Below, in pieces: positions 138 through 8,511 of a stretch of 8,540 nt of DNA; position 1 is the stretch's first letter, and each line of letters opens with the position of its first letter. The notes below the pieces were generated by a model that was not told the origin of the DNA, searched no databases, and was given only the letters and a program-made list of their open reading frames with translations. Origin of the DNA: Naegleria gruberi (taxonomy: Eukaryota); assembly GCA_000004985.1 (NCBI GenBank), contig GG739061.1; one strand, given 5' to 3'. Both the position numbers and the translations under genes were made by a program.

Positions 138-779
138 ATGACCGTAAAAATCCTCCCTGTAAATAATACTGCCACCAATCAAACTAAATATTTCCTTTCT
201 AAGAATGAACAAATTGCTGAAGAAGAAACAATTTGGCTAAAGAAAAAGGAACGTTTTCTAACTTGTAAGGAAGCAATTAATAGAATCATGTGGGATTCTG
301 ATTTAAATGATGCCTATCTTCACTTGTCAATGATTTACAAAGACAGATTTGAAGGTGACACTTTTATTTCATATGAAGAATTCTTAAATAGTGATTTGGC
401 TGAAGAACTTCCACAACACCGAATTCAACAATTGATTTATAGAGATGAATATGTATTCTGGGATAAGAATAATAGAATTGACATGTTGTCAAATGGTCAA
501 TTGGGAGAATTGATTTTGAAATTCAAAAAGGAAGAACAAGAAAGAATTGCTAGAGAACATGCTGAATTCACAACTGTTTTACAACCAACAACTCCAGAAA
601 CCTCAACTTTAAAATCTTGTTCACAAAAGAAGAATAAGAAGAATAAGAAAATTATGAAGGAATTTGTTAGAAATCAAGAAACAGGCAAACAAATTGTTTC
701 ATCTATTGACGAGGATGATGAGTATGAACAATATATGGAAGAATATGATGAACAATATTCAATCTATTCTAAATATTAA
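138..779 (+). CDS. Intronless 213-aa hypothetical protein, possibly an MJ1316/DUF504-like RNA-end recognition domain, with a basic KKNKKNKK patch and an acidic Tyr-rich C-tail
   Basis: The frame is uninterrupted and this is the first ATG after an in-frame TAA at 129-131, with A at -3. The stop at 777-779 overlaps an AATAAA at 779-784. The 'RIMWDSDLN...LPQHRIQQLIYRDEYVFWDKNNRID' block resembles the MJ1316 domain consensus as I remember it. That match is unverified. Confidence 0.6.
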   Translation: MTVKILPVNNTATNQTKYFLSKNEQIAEEETIWLKKKERFLTCKEAINRIMWDSDLNDAYLHLSMIYKDRFEGDTFISYEEFLNSDLAEELPQHRIQQLIYRDEYVFWDKNNRIDMLSNGQLGELILKFKKEEQERIAREHAEFTTVLQPTTPETSTLKSCSQKKNKKNKKIMKEFVRNQETGKQIVSSIDEDDEYEQYMEEYDEQYSIYSKY

Positions 780-974: not shown

Positions 975-1945
975 TTACACTACTATTATTTGATTTCTTT
1001 CTCTTGCAGAAACAGTATTAATGAGCATTTGTCTTGCCAATTGTCCCATCAATCTGCCTTTCCACACCACAAATGCTTCATCCAAACACAATTGAGAAAA
1101 GAGCATGTGAGCTCTCTGAGCTGATTGAGACTCGGAAATTGTAATATCACATGTTTCATATTCAATTCGAATAATATCAGTTTCATCACGATCTTGCAAT
1201 TCGAAACTGGCATACCCAGCCATATTAGTTGCAGAAGAATCATTTCCATCATTTGCTGATCCATATCCTTCATCAGATATTGGTGCAAAATTTGATGCTT
1301 GAGTGATTTCCTTTCCTGAATTATTCAATCTAGCTTTCATTAGATTATATTGAAATTCCAAAGATTTCAGATGCACTTGTCCTAATAGAACCAAATTGTC
1401 CTTACTTGAAACAACGGGTAAAATCTTTGGTAATTTCTTCTTTTGTAAGAGGAGTTCAAGATCTCTCATTGAAACATTCTCTTCCAAAATGTCTAGTTTA
1501 TCGACAGATGTCATAATATTGGTAACTTTCAAATCTTCTGAATCTGTCATACTCTCCAATAATGCTGGCCATCCCTTTACCTTAATACTGGTATCATAAA
1601 AGTTTGCTGTGCACAATCTTGAAATTCTGACAGCTATCAAAGCAGCCATTAAACTTGGAAGATAAACAGCAACACCAACAATTTCAAGGAAGATGAAAAC
1701 AGTTGAAAATGCATGTGTGGCTGATGCTGTCAATGCCACAATACCAACAACTGCATAAGCTCCTGCATAAATTGGTTGTCCAGCAACAAATCCATTTGGA
1801 AATATAATTGCCACTATTTCTCCAAAGAATCTTCCACATCCAGCTCCAATAATAACTAGTGGAATGTATGTTCCTCCTGGAAGTGGCAAACTCATTGAAA
1901 AAATTGTGAATATCAATCGAATCACAATGAAAATGGCAAGAGAGG
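975..1945 (-). CDS. CLC terminal coding exon (from gap to stop): GxFxP-region, helix R, and two C-terminal CBS domains
   Basis: The frame is open from the gap edge (1945) to TAA at 977-975. It contains '..LPLPGGTYIPLVIIGAGCGRFFGE..PIYAGAYAVVGIVALTASATHAFSTVFIFLEIVGVAVYLPSLMAAL..YDTSIKVKGWPAL', which corresponds to CLC helices N-R. A CBS-like 'VTNIMTSV...LPKILPVVSSKDNLVLLGQVHLKSL' and a second CBS-like segment follow. The track's 'M' at 1925 is a GTG, not a start. Confidence 0.85.
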
Positions 1946-2320
1946 NNNNNNNNNNNNNNNNNNNNNNNNNNNNNNNNNNNNNNNNNNNNNNNNNNNNNNN
2001 NNNNNNNNNNNNNNNNNNNNNNNNNNNNNNNNNNNNNNNNNNNNNNNNNNNNNNNNNNNNNNNNNNNNNNNNNNNNNNNNNNNNNNNNNNNNNNNNNNNN
2101 NNNNNNNNNNNNNNNNNNNNNNNNNNNNNNNNNNNNNNNNNNNNNNNNNNNNNNNNNNNNNNNNNNNNNNNNNNNNNNNNNNNNNNNNNNNNNNNNNNNN
2201 NNNNNNNNNNNNNNNNNNNNNNNNNNNNNNNNNNNNNNNNNNNNNNNNNNNNNNNNNNNNNNNNNNNNNNNNNNNNNNNNNNNNNNNNNNNNNNNNNNNN
2301 NNNNNNNNNNNNNNNNNNNN
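1946..2320. other. Assembly gap (375 N) inside CLC gene
   Basis: A continuous run of N. The missing region should hold CLC helices F-M, including the 'proton glutamate' region. Confidence 0.99.
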
Positions 2321-2397
2321 GCTACCAATAGGTTTAAATATTGGAATTTTGAGCATGTTGTTGATTAGGAGAGCGCCAATATGAGCCGAAGGTCCAA
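2321..2397 (-). CDS. CLC coding exon 3, 5' part (continues into assembly gap)
   Basis: Acceptor tctcaaAG|TTGGACC is the only AG in the 44-nt intron. The phase-1 junction gives G+TT = Val, so the reading is 'GK-VGPSAHIGALLINNMLKIPIFKPIGS', the CLC GK(E)GP..H.GA block. It stays open into the N-run. Confidence 0.7.
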
Positions 2398-2441
2398 CTT
2401 TGAGATTCGAATAAAAATTATTTGACATTTTGCAAACTTAC
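2398..2441 (-). other. Spliceosomal intron 2 of CLC gene (44 nt, GTAAGT...CAAAG)
   Basis: Consensus GTAAGT donor and a single possible AG acceptor. Without splicing, the downstream CLC 'VGPSAHIGA' block is lost. Confidence 0.7.
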
Positions 2442-2525
2442 CTTTACCAAAAAACATTCCAGTTCCCAAAACCGCTGGAAGTGTAATAATTTTTACAAGA
2501 AATGTTTTGAAACTGAGAGGATCTT
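2442..2525 (-). CDS. CLC coding exon 2 (84 nt, phase 1-1)
   Basis: Acceptor ctcctttAG|AAGATCC and donor GGTAAAG|GTAAGTTT. Spliced to exon 1 it reads 'GSGIPAIKG-EDPLSFKTFLVKIITLPAVLGTGMFFGK', which matches the CLC helix D-E region. The unspliced ORF would hit a stop at 2558. Confidence 0.75.
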
Positions 2526-2613
2526 CTAAAGGAGTACCATTTAAAATAGCTAAATAATTATTCGAAAGATGTCACACATTCGAATAAAACTAATTTCAGT
2601 TGAAAACACTTAC
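2526..2613 (-). other. Spliceosomal intron 1 of CLC gene (88 nt, GTAAGT...TTTAG)
   Basis: It has a canonical donor and acceptor. Removing it restores a conserved CLC reading frame. Confidence 0.75.
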
Positions 2614-3337
2614 CTTTAATAGCTGGAATACCAGATCCCTCCGAAGCAGGCGCAATGAAAATCGTCATCATTAAACTCACATACATAAACACCAAATTAA
2701 ACAAAATCCACAAAACTAAACGTAATCCGAAATAACTATTCGAATCGAATGCATTTATCAAAGTCAACCTTCCCTGAAACATGTATTTGACAATCAAATC
2801 ATGCGTATAAATAATCACTCCACCAACAAATCCACAAACTGTTAGAAATGTCCAAGTATATTTCTTTCGTCTAATTCCTTTTAGACCTTTCTTCCAATTT
2901 TGAGTTTCTACATAATTTACATTCGAAGCATTCTTTAAATTTGTTAGAATTACTTTCGTTTCCATGTCGTCAAGAGTTGTTACGGTAGAGGATGCAGTCA
3001 ATCCTGTTTTTTTGCTAGTTTCGTTTGGAGTGATTGTGCTATCCGAAACAACATTAGGTTTCGTCGACTGTTTGTTAGAGTCATCCTTTGTGTCGTCGTT
3101 ATTGTTGTCGTTGTTGTGAATGGTCACGGTGGGTGAGACAACATCTGTGATCATTGCGTTTGTTGTTGTATTTTTTTTGCTTGAGAGAATCGTCCAATCT
3201 TTCGTATAAAACCATTTGGGGATTTTTTCAAAAGTGGTACCGTGAATTGATTTGTTTAGTACAGTGGAACTATATTTGAGTACATTGCATCTTAAATTGA
3301 ATTTATATGTAAATTGTTGAAAATTTTGAGAAATCAT
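2614..3337 (-). CDS. CLC chloride channel/transporter, coding exon 1 (N-terminus through GSGIP motif)
   Basis: ATG at 3337 is preceded by an in-frame TGA three codons upstream. The translation ends '...IAPASEGSGIPAIK', which is the CLC GSGIP selectivity-filter motif. The exon ends ATTAAAG|GTAAGT, a consensus donor at 2613-2608 on the minus strand. An Asn/Asp-rich N-terminal cytoplasmic tail is present. Confidence 0.85.
3092..3118. repeat. Imperfect GTY trinucleotide run (gtcgtcgttattgttgtcgttgttgtg) encoding N/D-rich low-complexity tract of CLC N-terminus
   Basis: Seen directly in the sequence. On the minus strand it encodes 'HNNDNNNDDTKDD'. Confidence 0.6.
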
Positions 3338-3639: not shown

Positions 3640-4452
3640 ATGAGAAAATCTGTCATGTTCTTTGGCTCCAAACTTAATAGAAACGAAGCCGATGAACAAT
3701 ACCTTCCCTACACCAACCATCGACACTCCAAAATGTTCGGTACCATTACTTCTTCGACTGTCAACAATCAAAATAATTCTTTAAATTTCACATTACCAAG
3801 AATTATAAATATTGACATGAAGGATCCTCTGAAATGTTTTGAATTTATTAATAATTGTGAAAAGGGTGCATTTAATGTCCATGCCATTGAATTTTCACAC
3901 GTTCAATATTTATTACAACAATTAGTTTGCAGTAATTCGATTTATAGTGAACTGCCAATATTTCACATCAAAAAGCAAGATAGAGTTTCACTTGATTTAT
4001 CAGTGAGTGTATCACCATCGACTCCAATTTCGACATCTCGAAGAGAAACAGTCAGTGGAAGTGGTGGATATTTAACTCCAAATTCACCAAATTTTGATGA
4101 TAATTCAAGTTCGAGTAGTTTGGGGTCAACTTTTACTAATCCTTCAATTCCAAATAAGGATTTACCAAGTATTAGCACTGGTTTGAATGAGAGGAAGGTT
4201 TCTGGATTTGGAAAGTTGAAGAAAATATTTCAGAAAGTTTCGCCTTCAACTCCTTCTTCTCCAAAAAAGAAAAGGGCAAAAGTTTTGAAGAATTTATTCG
4301 ATTCCATGCCTAATTTGACTAAATTGACCATGACAGAGAGTTTTGCAAATGAGATGGAGGCAGATTCATTTGAAGGTTATTCATTTGGTCATTTATGTGA
4401 ATATTTAACAAGTAGTGCAGTAACTTCCTTGACAGGTTTGACAAGTTTAGAA
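3640..4452 (+). CDS. N-terminal part of large LRR-containing protein: unique N-terminal region, Ser/Pro-rich linker with SV40-like NLS (SPKKKRAKV), onset of leucine-rich repeats; continues into gap
   Basis: This is the first ATG (3640, A at -3) in a frame open from 3556 (a GTG) to the gap. The sequence 'LKNLFDSMPNLTKLTMTESF...GHLCEYLTSSAVTSLTGLTSLE' is LRR-like and PKKKRAK is NLS-like. The N-terminal 150 aa shows no CARD, PYD, TIR or F-box. Confidence 0.6.
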
Positions 4453-7365
4453 NNNNNNNNNNNNNNNNNNNNNNNNNNNNNNNNNNNNNNNNNNNNNNNN
4501 NNNNNNNNNNNNNNNNNNNNNNNNNNNNNNNNNNNNNNNNNNNNNNNNNNNNNNNNNNNNNNNNNNNNNNNNNNNNNNNNNNNNNNNNNNNNNNNNNNNN
4601 NNNNNNNNNNNNNNNNNNNNNNNNNNNNNNNNNNNNNNNNNNNNNNNNNNNNNNNNNNNNNNNNNNNNNNNNNNNNNNNNNNNNNNNNNNNNNNNNNNNN
4701 NNNNNNNNNNNNNNNNNNNNNNNNNNNNNNNNNNNNNNNNNNNNNNNNNNNNNNNNNNNNNNNNNNNNNNNNNNNNNNNNNNNNNNNNNNNNNNNNNNNN
4801 NNNNNNNNNNNNNNNNNNNNNNNNNNNNNNNNNNNNNNNNNNNNNNNNNNNNNNNNNNNNNNNNNNNNNNNNNNNNNNNNNNNNNNNNNNNNNNNNNNNN
4901 NNNNNNNNNNNNNNNNNNNNNNNNNNNNNNNNNNNNNNNNNNNNNNNNNNNNNNNNNNNNNNNNNNNNNNNNNNNNNNNNNNNNNNNNNNNNNNNNNNNN
5001 NNNNNNNNNNNNNNNNNNNNNNNNNNNNNNNNNNNNNNNNNNNNNNNNNNNNNNNNNNNNNNNNNNNNNNNNNNNNNNNNNNNNNNNNNNNNNNNNNNNN
5101 NNNNNNNNNNNNNNNNNNNNNNNNNNNNNNNNNNNNNNNNNNNNNNNNNNNNNNNNNNNNNNNNNNNNNNNNNNNNNNNNNNNNNNNNNNNNNNNNNNNN
5201 NNNNNNNNNNNNNNNNNNNNNNNNNNNNNNNNNNNNNNNNNNNNNNNNNNNNNNNNNNNNNNNNNNNNNNNNNNNNNNNNNNNNNNNNNNNNNNNNNNNN
5301 NNNNNNNNNNNNNNNNNNNNNNNNNNNNNNNNNNNNNNNNNNNNNNNNNNNNNNNNNNNNNNNNNNNNNNNNNNNNNNNNNNNNNNNNNNNNNNNNNNNN
5401 NNNNNNNNNNNNNNNNNNNNNNNNNNNNNNNNNNNNNNNNNNNNNNNNNNNNNNNNNNNNNNNNNNNNNNNNNNNNNNNNNNNNNNNNNNNNNNNNNNNN
5501 NNNNNNNNNNNNNNNNNNNNNNNNNNNNNNNNNNNNNNNNNNNNNNNNNNNNNNNNNNNNNNNNNNNNNNNNNNNNNNNNNNNNNNNNNNNNNNNNNNNN
5601 NNNNNNNNNNNNNNNNNNNNNNNNNNNNNNNNNNNNNNNNNNNNNNNNNNNNNNNNNNNNNNNNNNNNNNNNNNNNNNNNNNNNNNNNNNNNNNNNNNNN
5701 NNNNNNNNNNNNNNNNNNNNNNNNNNNNNNNNNNNNNNNNNNNNNNNNNNNNNNNNNNNNNNNNNNNNNNNNNNNNNNNNNNNNNNNNNNNNNNNNNNNN
5801 NNNNNNNNNNNNNNNNNNNNNNNNNNNNNNNNNNNNNNNNNNNNNNNNNNNNNNNNNNNNNNNNNNNNNNNNNNNNNNNNNNNNNNNNNNNNNNNNNNNN
5901 NNNNNNNNNNNNNNNNNNNNNNNNNNNNNNNNNNNNNNNNNNNNNNNNNNNNNNNNNNNNNNNNNNNNNNNNNNNNNNNNNNNNNNNNNNNNNNNNNNNN
6001 NNNNNNNNNNNNNNNNNNNNNNNNNNNNNNNNNNNNNNNNNNNNNNNNNNNNNNNNNNNNNNNNNNNNNNNNNNNNNNNNNNNNNNNNNNNNNNNNNNNN
6101 NNNNNNNNNNNNNNNNNNNNNNNNNNNNNNNNNNNNNNNNNNNNNNNNNNNNNNNNNNNNNNNNNNNNNNNNNNNNNNNNNNNNNNNNNNNNNNNNNNNN
6201 NNNNNNNNNNNNNNNNNNNNNNNNNNNNNNNNNNNNNNNNNNNNNNNNNNNNNNNNNNNNNNNNNNNNNNNNNNNNNNNNNNNNNNNNNNNNNNNNNNNN
6301 NNNNNNNNNNNNNNNNNNNNNNNNNNNNNNNNNNNNNNNNNNNNNNNNNNNNNNNNNNNNNNNNNNNNNNNNNNNNNNNNNNNNNNNNNNNNNNNNNNNN
6401 NNNNNNNNNNNNNNNNNNNNNNNNNNNNNNNNNNNNNNNNNNNNNNNNNNNNNNNNNNNNNNNNNNNNNNNNNNNNNNNNNNNNNNNNNNNNNNNNNNNN
6501 NNNNNNNNNNNNNNNNNNNNNNNNNNNNNNNNNNNNNNNNNNNNNNNNNNNNNNNNNNNNNNNNNNNNNNNNNNNNNNNNNNNNNNNNNNNNNNNNNNNN
6601 NNNNNNNNNNNNNNNNNNNNNNNNNNNNNNNNNNNNNNNNNNNNNNNNNNNNNNNNNNNNNNNNNNNNNNNNNNNNNNNNNNNNNNNNNNNNNNNNNNNN
6701 NNNNNNNNNNNNNNNNNNNNNNNNNNNNNNNNNNNNNNNNNNNNNNNNNNNNNNNNNNNNNNNNNNNNNNNNNNNNNNNNNNNNNNNNNNNNNNNNNNNN
6801 NNNNNNNNNNNNNNNNNNNNNNNNNNNNNNNNNNNNNNNNNNNNNNNNNNNNNNNNNNNNNNNNNNNNNNNNNNNNNNNNNNNNNNNNNNNNNNNNNNNN
6901 NNNNNNNNNNNNNNNNNNNNNNNNNNNNNNNNNNNNNNNNNNNNNNNNNNNNNNNNNNNNNNNNNNNNNNNNNNNNNNNNNNNNNNNNNNNNNNNNNNNN
7001 NNNNNNNNNNNNNNNNNNNNNNNNNNNNNNNNNNNNNNNNNNNNNNNNNNNNNNNNNNNNNNNNNNNNNNNNNNNNNNNNNNNNNNNNNNNNNNNNNNNN
7101 NNNNNNNNNNNNNNNNNNNNNNNNNNNNNNNNNNNNNNNNNNNNNNNNNNNNNNNNNNNNNNNNNNNNNNNNNNNNNNNNNNNNNNNNNNNNNNNNNNNN
7201 NNNNNNNNNNNNNNNNNNNNNNNNNNNNNNNNNNNNNNNNNNNNNNNNNNNNNNNNNNNNNNNNNNNNNNNNNNNNNNNNNNNNNNNNNNNNNNNNNNNN
7301 NNNNNNNNNNNNNNNNNNNNNNNNNNNNNNNNNNNNNNNNNNNNNNNNNNNNNNNNNNNNNNNNN
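4453..7365. other. Assembly gap (2913 N) inside the LRR-protein gene
   Basis: A continuous run of N. It hides the central domain(s) and most of the repeats. Confidence 0.99.
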
Positions 7366-7711
7366 ACTTCAGCACTTAACCATTTCGAGAAATAATGTTG
7401 GCAGCTCTGGTTGTCTCTATCTGAATGCACTTTCAAAATTGGAATACTTGGATCTTGTTGGAAATGACATTAGGGATGCAGGATGTGAAATATTATGTAA
7501 TGGATCACTGACAAACGTTCGAGTTTTCCTTTTGAATCAGAATTTAATTGGTTTGGAAGGTGTGAAATTCCTGTTGAATGCAGATTTTCCAAAATTGGAA
7601 GAAATTCACTTACAGGATGCCAAGGATGGATCTATTCATGCCAATACTATTGAAAGACAACCTCTGGTAGAGCTATATACTTCTCATAAGAGTAAGGTTA
7701 TCCTCAAATAA
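7366..7711 (+). CDS. C-terminal ribonuclease-inhibitor (RNI)-type leucine-rich repeats of LRR protein, to stop codon
   Basis: Open from the gap edge to TAA at 7709-7711. The translation '..LQHLTISRNNVGSSGCLYLNALSKLEYLDLVGNDIRDAGCEILCNGSLTNVRVFLLNQNLIGLEGVKFLLNADFPKLEEIHLQD..' has the L..L.L..N.Igd.G...L periodicity of RNI-like LRRs (NLRC/RanGAP type). AATAAA at 7707-7712 overlaps the stop. The frame differs from the N-terminal part, which means nothing across an N-run of arbitrary length. Confidence 0.65.
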
Positions 7712-7974: not shown

Positions 7975-8511
7975 CTACATGGTGGTGGTTTTGAATCTAC
8001 TATGTTTGGTCAACCAAATGATTCCAAGAACTGAAATAATCAAAGCTGCTAACAAACTCATAATAGCACAAATCGTTAGTATTACAATATTATTCATCAG
8101 CAAACTCTTTACAAAGTAAACAGTACTGACAATGAATAGAGACACCAGAACAAACATGATACATCCCATCATGATATTCTTCTTGTTATTATCGAGTACC
8201 TTTCCCACTCGTTTCCAATAAGGTTCAGTCACCACAAGTGTTCGAATTGAGAATGACTGTTGTTTATGATATTGATCGTCACATGATAAATAACTGGAAA
8301 CTGATTCATTACAACTACAAACTGGTGACAATTCAGTGTCACAAATTAAAGCACCACTACCAAGTTTCGTCTCATAATAGTGTGCTTCGTTTTTGTAGTC
8401 AGGAGTTGTAGAAAACATGATCATTTGTTGTCCACTACTTGTAGTCGAATTTGTTGGATAGAGTGGATAGTGATCAGTTGAATTGGAATTAGATCGAGAT
8501 TGTTTGGCCAT
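7975..8511 (-). CDS. Orphan 178-aa membrane protein: hydrophilic Ser/Asn-rich N-terminus, Cys cluster (C..C.C...C), two C-terminal TM helices (hairpin)
   Basis: ATG at 8511 in 'agaaATGG' context and TAG stop at 7977-7975. The hydrophobic stretches 'IMMGCIMFVLVSLFIVSTVYFV' and 'IVILTICAIMSLLAALIISVLGIIWL' lie 7 residues apart. There is no signal peptide. I recognise no family. Confidence 0.55.
   Translation of the reverse strand: MAKQSRSNSNSTDHYPLYPTNSTTSSGQQMIMFSTTPDYKNEAHYYETKLGSGALICDTELSPVCSCNESVSSYLSCDDQYHKQQSFSIRTLVVTEPYWKRVGKVLDNNKKNIMMGCIMFVLVSLFIVSTVYFVKSLLMNNIVILTICAIMSLLAALIISVLGIIWLTKHSRFKTTTM

What the first reader, a model, noticed from the sequence alone, without database searches (positions are those of the whole stretch)
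3640..7711. Large LRR gene with RNI-type C-terminal repeats and an NLS-bearing novel N-terminus; central ~2.9 kb unsequenced (possible NLR-like architecture, unproven)
The C-terminal 115 aa are RNI-like LRRs of the kind found in NACHT-LRR/NLRC proteins, RanGAP and CARMIL. The N-terminal 150 aa match no domain I recognise. They are followed by an SSSS/STPSSP linker with a near-SV40 NLS (SPKKKRAKV) and then the start of LRRs. Whether a nucleotide-binding domain (NACHT/NB-ARC) or only further repeats sit between them cannot be told from this window.
Basis: partly seen in the sequence, partly recalled or inferred. Interest (0 to 1): 0.5.

Follow-up and report, generated by a model that had tools for sequence, protein, structure and literature searches.

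The report
Gapped duplicate of known Naegleria LRR gene
The two reading-frame pieces either side of the sequencing gap are a second, incompletely assembled copy of an already annotated 646-residue Naegleria gruberi leucine-rich-repeat protein whose complete copy has only repeats in the middle, so it is an ordinary repeat protein and not an NLR-type immune receptor.

Summary
An ORF of 271 codons (3640-4452) runs into a run of 2913 N, and 114 codons plus a stop run out of it (7367-7711). The C-terminal piece is LRR_6-type. The N-terminal piece has no detectable relatives and carries SPKKKRAKV.

The window is a whole 8540-bp scaffold of Naegleria gruberi NEG-M. It is an allelic duplicate of a three-gene block (MJ1316 protein, ClC channel, LRR protein) that is also annotated on a 502-kb scaffold. 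There the gene is complete: XP_002678442.1, 646 aa, "leucine rich repeat domain-containing protein".

Its first 271 and last 114 residues match the window's two pieces with no mismatch. The 261 residues between them are a regular array of 24-26-residue LRRs. They contain no Walker A or B motif, and Pfam finds nothing but LRR families.

About 782 bp of coding sequence is missing, not 2.9 kb; the length of the N run is only an estimate. The public model on this scaffold (XP_002668447.1, 318 aa) is an artefact that splices across the gap.

The most likely function is an intracellular LRR binding scaffold, possibly nuclear. That is inference only.

The parts
3640..4452 (+). 5' part of the LRR gene: 271 codons from the first ATG, open into the gap. 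Identical to residues 1-271 of XP_002678442.1.
3640..3969 (+). Residues 1-110, the orphan N-terminal region. No family match and no homologue. The boundary at residue 110 is approximate.
   Evidence: The AF2 single-sequence model has pLDDT 36 and is not informative.
3970..4284 (+). Residues 111-215, an S/T/P/N/G-rich (52%) low-complexity linker. It ends in the SV40-like basic motif.
4258..4284 (+). SPKKKRAKV (aa 207-215): a classical monopartite NLS-like motif. It starts with an S-P-K-K match to the CDK-site consensus. Both readings are inferred from the motif only.
4315..4452 (+). Residues 226-271: the irregular first LRR units (LTKLTMTES..., ...LTGLTSLE) leading into the array.
   Evidence: No Pfam hit on the fragment alone. 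In the full-length twin the LRR_14 match starts at aa 259 and a conserved-segment motif lies at aa 226.
4453..7365 (.). Assembly gap of 2913 N. By the twin it should hold residues 272-531 plus two bases of codon 532, about 782 bp, which is roughly ten LRR units.
   Evidence: Gap sizes on this scaffold are unreliable.
7366..7711 (+). 3' part of the LRR gene: last base of codon Q532, residues 533-646, then the stop at 7709-7711. Identical to the last 114 residues of XP_002678442.1.
7367..7630 (+). The last LRR units, starting at aa 533, 557 and 583 (24, 26 and 26 residues), plus a terminal partial unit from aa 609. A 26-residue tail follows (7631-7708).
975..3154 (-). Neighbouring ClC chloride-channel gene, with introns and the 375-N gap at 1946-2320. 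It is divergently transcribed from the LRR gene. Residues 444-765 are 100% identical to XP_002678351.1 on the 502-kb scaffold.
138..779 (+). MJ1316-domain protein (XP_002668446.1). It matches XP_002678443.1 on the 502-kb scaffold at 212 of 213 residues, which marks the window as an allelic copy.

Best explanation
Window 3640-7711 is the gapped, allelic (haplotig) copy of one already annotated Naegleria gruberi NEG-M gene, XP_002678442.1 / EFC45698.1 / UniProt D2VC73.

Architecture of the complete 646-aa protein:
- about 110 residues of orphan N-terminal sequence;
- about 105 residues of S/T/P-rich, probably disordered linker ending in the basic motif SPKKKRAKV;
- about 15 tandem LRRs of 24-26 residues (Pfam LRR_6), running almost to the C-terminus.

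It has no nucleotide-binding domain. The assembly gap hides roughly ten ordinary LRR units, about 782 bp.

The architecture and the identity with the twin gene are shown. The mechanism is inferred: a soluble LRR horseshoe that binds a protein partner on its concave face, with the basic motif acting as an importin-alpha-dependent nuclear import signal.
For: - The N-terminal query finds only XP_002668447.1, from an 8540-bp Naegleria gruberi contig, which is the window itself.
- Its 90%-identity cluster holds a second member, the 646-aa XP_002678442.1, on a 502,116-bp scaffold.
- Window residues 1-271 and the last 114 residues match that protein with 0 mismatches. The 261 residues between them contain no Walker A or B motif.
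- Pfam on the full protein finds only LRR families: LRR_6 4.6e-23, LRR_4, LRR_14, LRR_1, LRR_8.
- LRR conserved segments matched by the motif scan recur at 329, 355, 381, 407, 433, 459, 485, 509, 533, 557 and 583. They run without a break through the part missing from the window.
- The neighbours are duplicated too. ClC residues 444-765 are 100% identical to XP_002678351.1. The MJ1316 protein matches XP_002678443.1 at 212/213 residues. Both lie on the same 502-kb scaffold, with consecutive UniProt accessions D2VC73, D2VC74 and D2VC75.
- Gap lengths on this scaffold are only estimates: 375 N against 649 bp.
- The best solved relatives are LRR-only proteins: GALA protein 5e-17, ribonuclease inhibitor 1.7e-11, DRC5 1.6e-6.
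Against: - The DNA of the 502-kb scaffold could not be fetched. Identity is therefore shown at protein level only, and the content of this allele's gap is inferred, not read.
- The N run is 2913 long, against about 782 bp expected.
- Nothing tests the NLS, the binding partner or expression.
- Both AF2 single-sequence models were of low confidence.
Confidence: 0.9

Rival explanations
1. It is the same gene, but this allele carries about 2.1 kb of extra sequence in the gap compared with the 646-aa copy. That could be extra LRR units (a copy-number polymorphism), an intron or a mobile-element insertion.
For: - The N run is 2913 bp, whereas the twin predicts about 782 bp.
- The two copies are true alleles rather than the same reads assembled twice: they differ by one amino acid in the MJ1316 protein.
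Against: - Gap sizes on this scaffold are demonstrably unreliable (375 N against 649 bp).
- 707 residues are identical between the two copies across the LRR and ClC genes, 385 in the LRR gene and 322 in ClC. That argues for very similar haplotypes.
- The visible LRR units are not near-identical at DNA level, so slippage or expansion is not favoured.
Confidence: 0.08
2. It has an NLR-like architecture: a NACHT or NB-ARC P-loop NTPase lies in the unsequenced centre, between an N-terminal effector region and the C-terminal LRRs.
For: - Only the general layout: an unknown N-terminus, a gap, and LRR_6 repeats at the extreme C-terminus.
- Weak matches of single repeats to NLRP1 LRRs, E about 0.03.
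Against: - The complete twin has flanks 100% identical to the window, and its centre holds only LRRs, with no Walker A/B motif.
- LRRs already begin upstream of the gap, which is not where an NLR has them.
- A survey of multiple non-metazoan genomes found NACHT only with ANK, TPR or WD40 repeats, never with LRRs (PMC3879445).
Confidence: 0.01
3. There are two separate same-strand genes. One ends and another begins inside the gap.
For: - A span of 2.9 kb could hold a gene boundary in this gene-dense genome, where intergenic spacers in the window are roughly 200-500 bp.
- The fragment upstream of the gap gives no LRR hit in Pfam on its own.
Against: - Both pieces are the exact ends of one annotated 646-aa protein, and its repeat register runs continuously across both junctions.
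Confidence: 0.01

Closest known systems
Naegleria gruberi XP_002678442.1 / EFC45698.1 / UniProt D2VC73, 'leucine rich repeat domain-containing protein', 646 aa, on a 502-kb scaffold
   Same: - Residues 1-271 and 533-646 are identical to the window's two ORF pieces.
- It has the same neighbours, a ClC channel and an MJ1316 protein.
- This is the same gene, as another allele or assembly copy.
   Different: - It is fully sequenced.
- The window copy has a gap where residues 272-532 belong.
- The window copy is annotated as a truncated 318-aa chimera, XP_002668447.1.
GALA-type / cysteine-containing LRR proteins (for example PDB 9j7j_A 'GALA protein' and 4xa9_A)
   Same: - 9j7j_A is the best solved-structure match, E = 5e-17 over residues 353-567.
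- The repeats are short (24-26 residues), with an N.IG..G core and frequent Cys.
   Different: - By my own knowledge, GALA effectors and eukaryotic FBXL proteins carry an F-box upstream of the LRRs. No F-box is detectable here.
- The similarity is confined to the repeats.
Ribonuclease inhibitor (RI/RNI) and other LRR_6 proteins such as DRC5/TCTE1
   Same: - Pfam LRR_6 is well above its cut-off (79.8 against 23.4 bits).
- Ribonuclease inhibitor matches at 1.7e-11 and DRC5 at 1.6e-6.
- All are intracellular proteins in which the LRR array is the only recognised domain.
   Different: - Canonical RI repeats alternate between 28 and 29 residues (established knowledge). Here the period is 24-26.
- This protein has an extra orphan N-terminal region of about 215 residues with an NLS-like motif.
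- No orthology is shown.
Metazoan NLRs (NACHT-LRR) and plant NB-ARC-LRR proteins
   Same: The C-terminal LRR array belongs to the same broad Pfam family (LRR_6).
   Different: - There is no NACHT or NB-ARC domain, no Walker A/B motif, and no CARD, PYD or TIR domain.
- The total length of 646 aa is taken up by the N-terminal region and the repeats.

Membership tests
NLR (nucleotide-binding domain + LRR receptors) | A central STAND P-loop NTPase (NACHT or NB-ARC) with Walker A and B motifs | tested here: not met
   Pfam on the full-length twin returns only LRR families at E <= 1. A regex search for Walker A and Walker B finds nothing in the 646 aa.
NLR (nucleotide-binding domain + LRR receptors) | A C-terminal LRR sensor domain | tested here: met
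   LRR_6, E = 4.6e-23, with repeats reaching residue ~620 of 646.
NLR (nucleotide-binding domain + LRR receptors) | An N-terminal effector domain (CARD, PYD, TIR, coiled coil, Death) | tested here: not met
   No Pfam hit for residues 1-124 even at E <= 10. No PDB sequence match.
LRR superfamily, Pfam LRR_6 (RI-related) repeats | A match to PF13516 above the gathering score, with tandem LxxLxLxxN/CxL units | tested here: met
   33.1 bits for the window's C-terminal piece and 79.8 bits for the full protein, against a cut-off of 23.4. Eleven regularly spaced conserved segments from aa 329 to 583, plus an isolated one at aa 226, were found by regex.
Canonical ribonuclease-inhibitor (RI) LRR class | A repeat period of 28-29 residues | tested here: not met
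   The spacings between conserved segments are 26 (six times), 24 (three times), then 26 (twice).
F-box/LRR (FBXL) and GALA proteins | An F-box motif N-terminal to cysteine-containing or GALA LRRs | tested here: not met
   No F-box family appears in Pfam for the N-terminal 271 aa at E <= 1, or for residues 214-271 at E <= 10. A faint by-eye resemblance of VLKNLFDSMPNLTKL to F-box helix 1 has no statistical support.
CARMIL | PH domain, then LRRs, then a long C-terminal half (helical dimerisation domain, capping-protein-binding region) | tested here: not met
   The protein ends 26 residues after the last partial LRR unit, so there is no C-terminal half. Whether the N-terminus has a PH-like fold could not be tested (AF2 pLDDT 36).

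The most novel reading that the evidence does not exclude
The allele on this small scaffold really differs from the reference copy by about 2.1 kb inside the LRR array. That would mean a large LRR copy-number polymorphism, or a mobile-element or intron insertion, between haplotypes of one clonal amoeba strain. The length of the N run would then be roughly right rather than a scaffolding error.
Probability: 0.08. Interest if true: 0.25.

Novelty: already known. Interest (0 to 1): 0.05.

Why it matters
It matters little for biology.

- The gene is already in GenBank and UniProt as an uncharacterised LRR protein, and the speculative NLR reading is excluded.
- A NACHT/NB-ARC-LRR protein in a heterolobosean would have challenged the view that NBD-LRR fusions arose only in animals and plants. 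This locus gives no support for that.
- The practical value is for curation. XP_002668447.1 (318 aa) and XP_002668448.1 (509 aa) are gap-truncated duplicates of XP_002678442.1 (646 aa) and XP_002678351.1 (765 aa). They inflate the gene count, and they create a false 'orphan' protein with a 3.1-kb 'intron'.

Tried and rejected
- **Exact-protein look-ups of contigs.** I tried the window's MJ1316 protein, the 178-aa membrane ORF, P0001 and P0010. None is on record, so no DNA of the 502-kb scaffold was obtained.
- **Homology search with the C-terminal 114 aa.** It found nothing, not even P0001, which shares 49 identical residues. The word index therefore misses short queries, and I did not treat this as evidence of absence.
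- **Exhaustive HMMER search of 1.84 billion representatives with the N-terminal 271 aa.** Besides the protein itself it gave two hits (P0002 and P0003). Both are artefacts of weak 35-57-residue matches repeated in tandem-repeat proteins.
- **Scans of metagenome, GTDB genome and viral contigs with both pieces.** They gave only a generic match of 46% identity over 37 residues, one to a metagenome contig and one to an Omnitrophota MAG.
- **Synteny.** The ClC orthologue (57% identity) on 25-35-kb contigs of a related heterolobosean has no LRR-gene, MJ1316 or membrane-protein neighbour.
- **AlphaFold2 without an alignment.** pLDDT was 36 for the N-terminal piece and 45 for the C-terminal piece. That is too low for a fold search, so none was run.
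- **F-box, CARMIL and RanGAP readings.** I considered and rejected them (see the membership tests).
- **Repeat-induced assembly collapse as the cause of the gap.** There is no support: the flanks share no long DNA repeats. The other gap on the scaffold lies in the ClC coding sequence rather than in a repeat array.
- **Frame comparison across the gap.** The frames differ by +1 if the N run is taken literally. This means nothing, because gap lengths are estimates.
- **Literature search for the accession numbers.** It found nothing.
Full report
**What is in the window.** The window is AT-rich (about 33% G+C outside the gaps) and holds two runs of N, 1946-2320 (375 N) and 4453-7365 (2913 N).

On the + strand, the first ATG at 3640 opens a frame that stays open for 271 codons, up to the last base before the long N run. 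On the far side, base 7366 is the third base of a codon. It is followed by 114 codons (7367-7708) and a TAA stop at 7709-7711.

With a stop-codon probability of 0.074 per codon in this composition, open frames of these lengths are expected by chance at 8e-10 and 1.5e-4.

The C-terminal piece matches Pfam LRR_6 (E = 4e-8, above the gathering score) and LRR_4. Its best solved-structure match is ribonuclease inhibitor, at 9e-6.

The N-terminal piece matches nothing in Pfam, NCBIfam or the PDB. It contains SPKKKRAKV at residues 207-215, inside a stretch that is 52% S/T/P/N/G.

The only slip is that '115 aa' includes the stop codon.

**Where it comes from.** A search with the N-terminal piece returned a single protein, P0001. 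This is XP_002668447.1, 'predicted protein [Naegleria gruberi]', whose longest contig is 8540 bp. The window is therefore an entire small scaffold of the N. gruberi NEG-M draft assembly, and the N runs are scaffold gaps.

Gap lengths on it are only estimates. A 97%-identical Naegleria contig from a public metagenome (L002, ENA ERZ929261) spans the first gap with 649 bp where the window has 375 N.

P0001 itself is a gene-prediction artefact. It joins 3640-4444 to 7560-7711 through a GT at 4445 and an AG at 7558-7559. That treats the gap as an intron and discards 65 residues of open LRR-coding frame.

**The decisive result.** The 90%-identity cluster of P0001 has a second member, P0010. This is XP_002678442.1 / EFC45698.1 / D2VC73, 'leucine rich repeat domain-containing protein [Naegleria gruberi]', 646 aa, on a 502,116-bp scaffold.

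Its first 271 residues and its last 114 residues are identical to the window's two pieces, with no mismatch.

The neighbours are duplicated as well:
- The ClC channel on the window's minus strand is 100% identical over residues 444-765 to XP_002678351.1 (D2VC74) on the same 502-kb scaffold.
- The MJ1316-domain protein at 138-779 matches XP_002678443.1 (D2VC75, EFC45699.1) at 212 of 213 residues.

The consecutive accessions (D2VC73-75 on the large scaffold, D2W5E7-9 on the small one) indicate the same gene order in both. This is an inference from accession order.

The single amino-acid difference shows that the window is an allelic copy (a haplotig) rather than the same reads assembled twice.

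**What lies in the 'unsequenced centre'.** In the complete copy, the 261 residues between the two pieces are LRRs and nothing else.

- Pfam finds only LRR families in the whole protein: LRR_6 4.6e-23, LRR_4, LRR_14 from residue 259, LRR_1 and LRR_8.
- There is no Walker A or Walker B motif anywhere.
- Conserved LxxLxLxxN/CxL segments were found by regex at 329, 355, 381, 407, 433, 459, 485, 509, 533, 557 and 583. By eye, further units start at about 226, 268, 295 and 609.

That gives about 15 repeats of 24-26 residues. Their register runs without interruption across both points where the window breaks off.

The missing coding sequence is therefore about 782 bp, roughly ten LRR units. The whole protein is 646 aa, not about 1350 aa.

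LRRs also start upstream of the gap, which is not the NLR layout. A survey of multiple non-metazoan genomes found NACHT only with ANK, TPR or WD40 repeats, never with LRRs (PMC3879445).

**What it is and how it probably works.** What is shown is an LRR-only protein with an orphan N-terminal region.

An exhaustive HMMER search of 1.84 billion representative proteins with the N-terminal 271 residues found only the protein itself and two spurious hits. Those two are weak local matches multiplied by tandem repeats in unrelated proteins.

No orthologue lies beside the ClC orthologue in a related heterolobosean. The gene therefore looks lineage-specific.

The best solved relatives of the repeat region are a GALA-type LRR protein (5e-17), ribonuclease inhibitors (1.7e-11) and the axonemal protein DRC5 (1.6e-6). 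The similarity is confined to the repeats.

The 24-26-residue period and the frequent Cys place the repeats nearer the cysteine-containing/GALA class than canonical 28-29-residue RI repeats. In that sense 'RNI-type' is only loosely right.

The following is inferred, not shown:
- The LRR array forms a horseshoe that binds a protein partner.
- SPKKKRAKV acts as a classical importin-alpha signal.
- Its S-P-K-K start matches the CDK-site consensus, so import could be regulated by phosphorylation.

No F-box, PH-like domain or other adaptor domain could be shown. AlphaFold2 without an alignment gave unusable models (pLDDT 36 and 45).

**Remaining uncertainty.** I could not retrieve the DNA of the 502-kb scaffold. 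The content of this allele's gap is therefore inferred from protein identity of the flanks and neighbours.

The N run is about 2.1 kb longer than the twin predicts. The simplest reading is a scaffolding estimate error, because the other gap is also wrong. An allele-specific insertion or LRR expansion is not excluded, and I put it at about 8%.

A P-loop domain in this allele, or two separate genes, each get about 1%.

The gene is already known and annotated. Interest is low. The useful outcome is a curation note: the gene models on this scaffold are gap-truncated duplicates of complete genes elsewhere in the assembly.

Noticed in passing
window 1946-2320 and 975-3154 (- strand); L002 1-2962: The first gap (375 N) interrupts a ClC chloride-channel gene. 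A 97%-identical contig from ENA metagenome ERZ929261 / run ERR1078381 closes it with 649 bp. The annotated model on this scaffold (XP_002668448.1, 509 aa) is truncated compared with the 765-aa XP_002678351.1.
   Followed up: yes
L002, L003 (ENA ERZ929261, Logan ERR1078381): A public 'metagenome' holds DNA about 97% identical to N. gruberi NEG-M, so a strain of the N. gruberi complex is present in that sample. Its other contigs might carry the LRR gene, but I could not reach them with the look-ups that remained.
   Followed up: partly
window 138-779 (+): The MJ1316 (RNA cyclic-end recognition) domain protein has three annotated copies in N. gruberi: this one, a copy with 1 aa different on the 502-kb scaffold, and a 96%-identical, 214-aa copy (XP_002673263.1) on a 342-kb scaffold. 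No matching extra copy of the ClC or LRR gene was seen, so the third copy is likely a separate paralogue.
   Followed up: partly
window 7975-8511 (- strand): A 178-codon ORF has a C-terminal hydrophobic stretch and only a sub-threshold Pfam match (GtrII-like, E = 0.0023). Its exact sequence is not in the 15-billion-protein collection, so it may be unannotated or modelled differently.
   Followed up: no
window 2402-2452 and 2545-2622 (- strand): Read on the minus strand, two short candidate introns of the ClC gene both start with GTAAGT and share a TTTTATTCGAAT-like motif near their 3' ends. This was seen by eye only.
   Followed up: no
L001 10001-10111; L006 4044-4154: The only matches to the C-terminal LRRs outside Naegleria were 37-residue stretches at 46% identity, in a JGI metagenome contig and in a Candidatus Omnitrophota MAG. 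This is generic LRR similarity and no evidence of a relationship.
   Followed up: no
L004/L005 (ENA ERZ2098899; Logan SRR29240419): Contigs of 25-35 kb from an unidentified heterolobosean-like eukaryote carry the ClC orthologue (57% identity), but with different neighbours (a RalGAP-like protein, a kinase, a PPR protein). The window's three-gene block is therefore not conserved there.
   Followed up: partly
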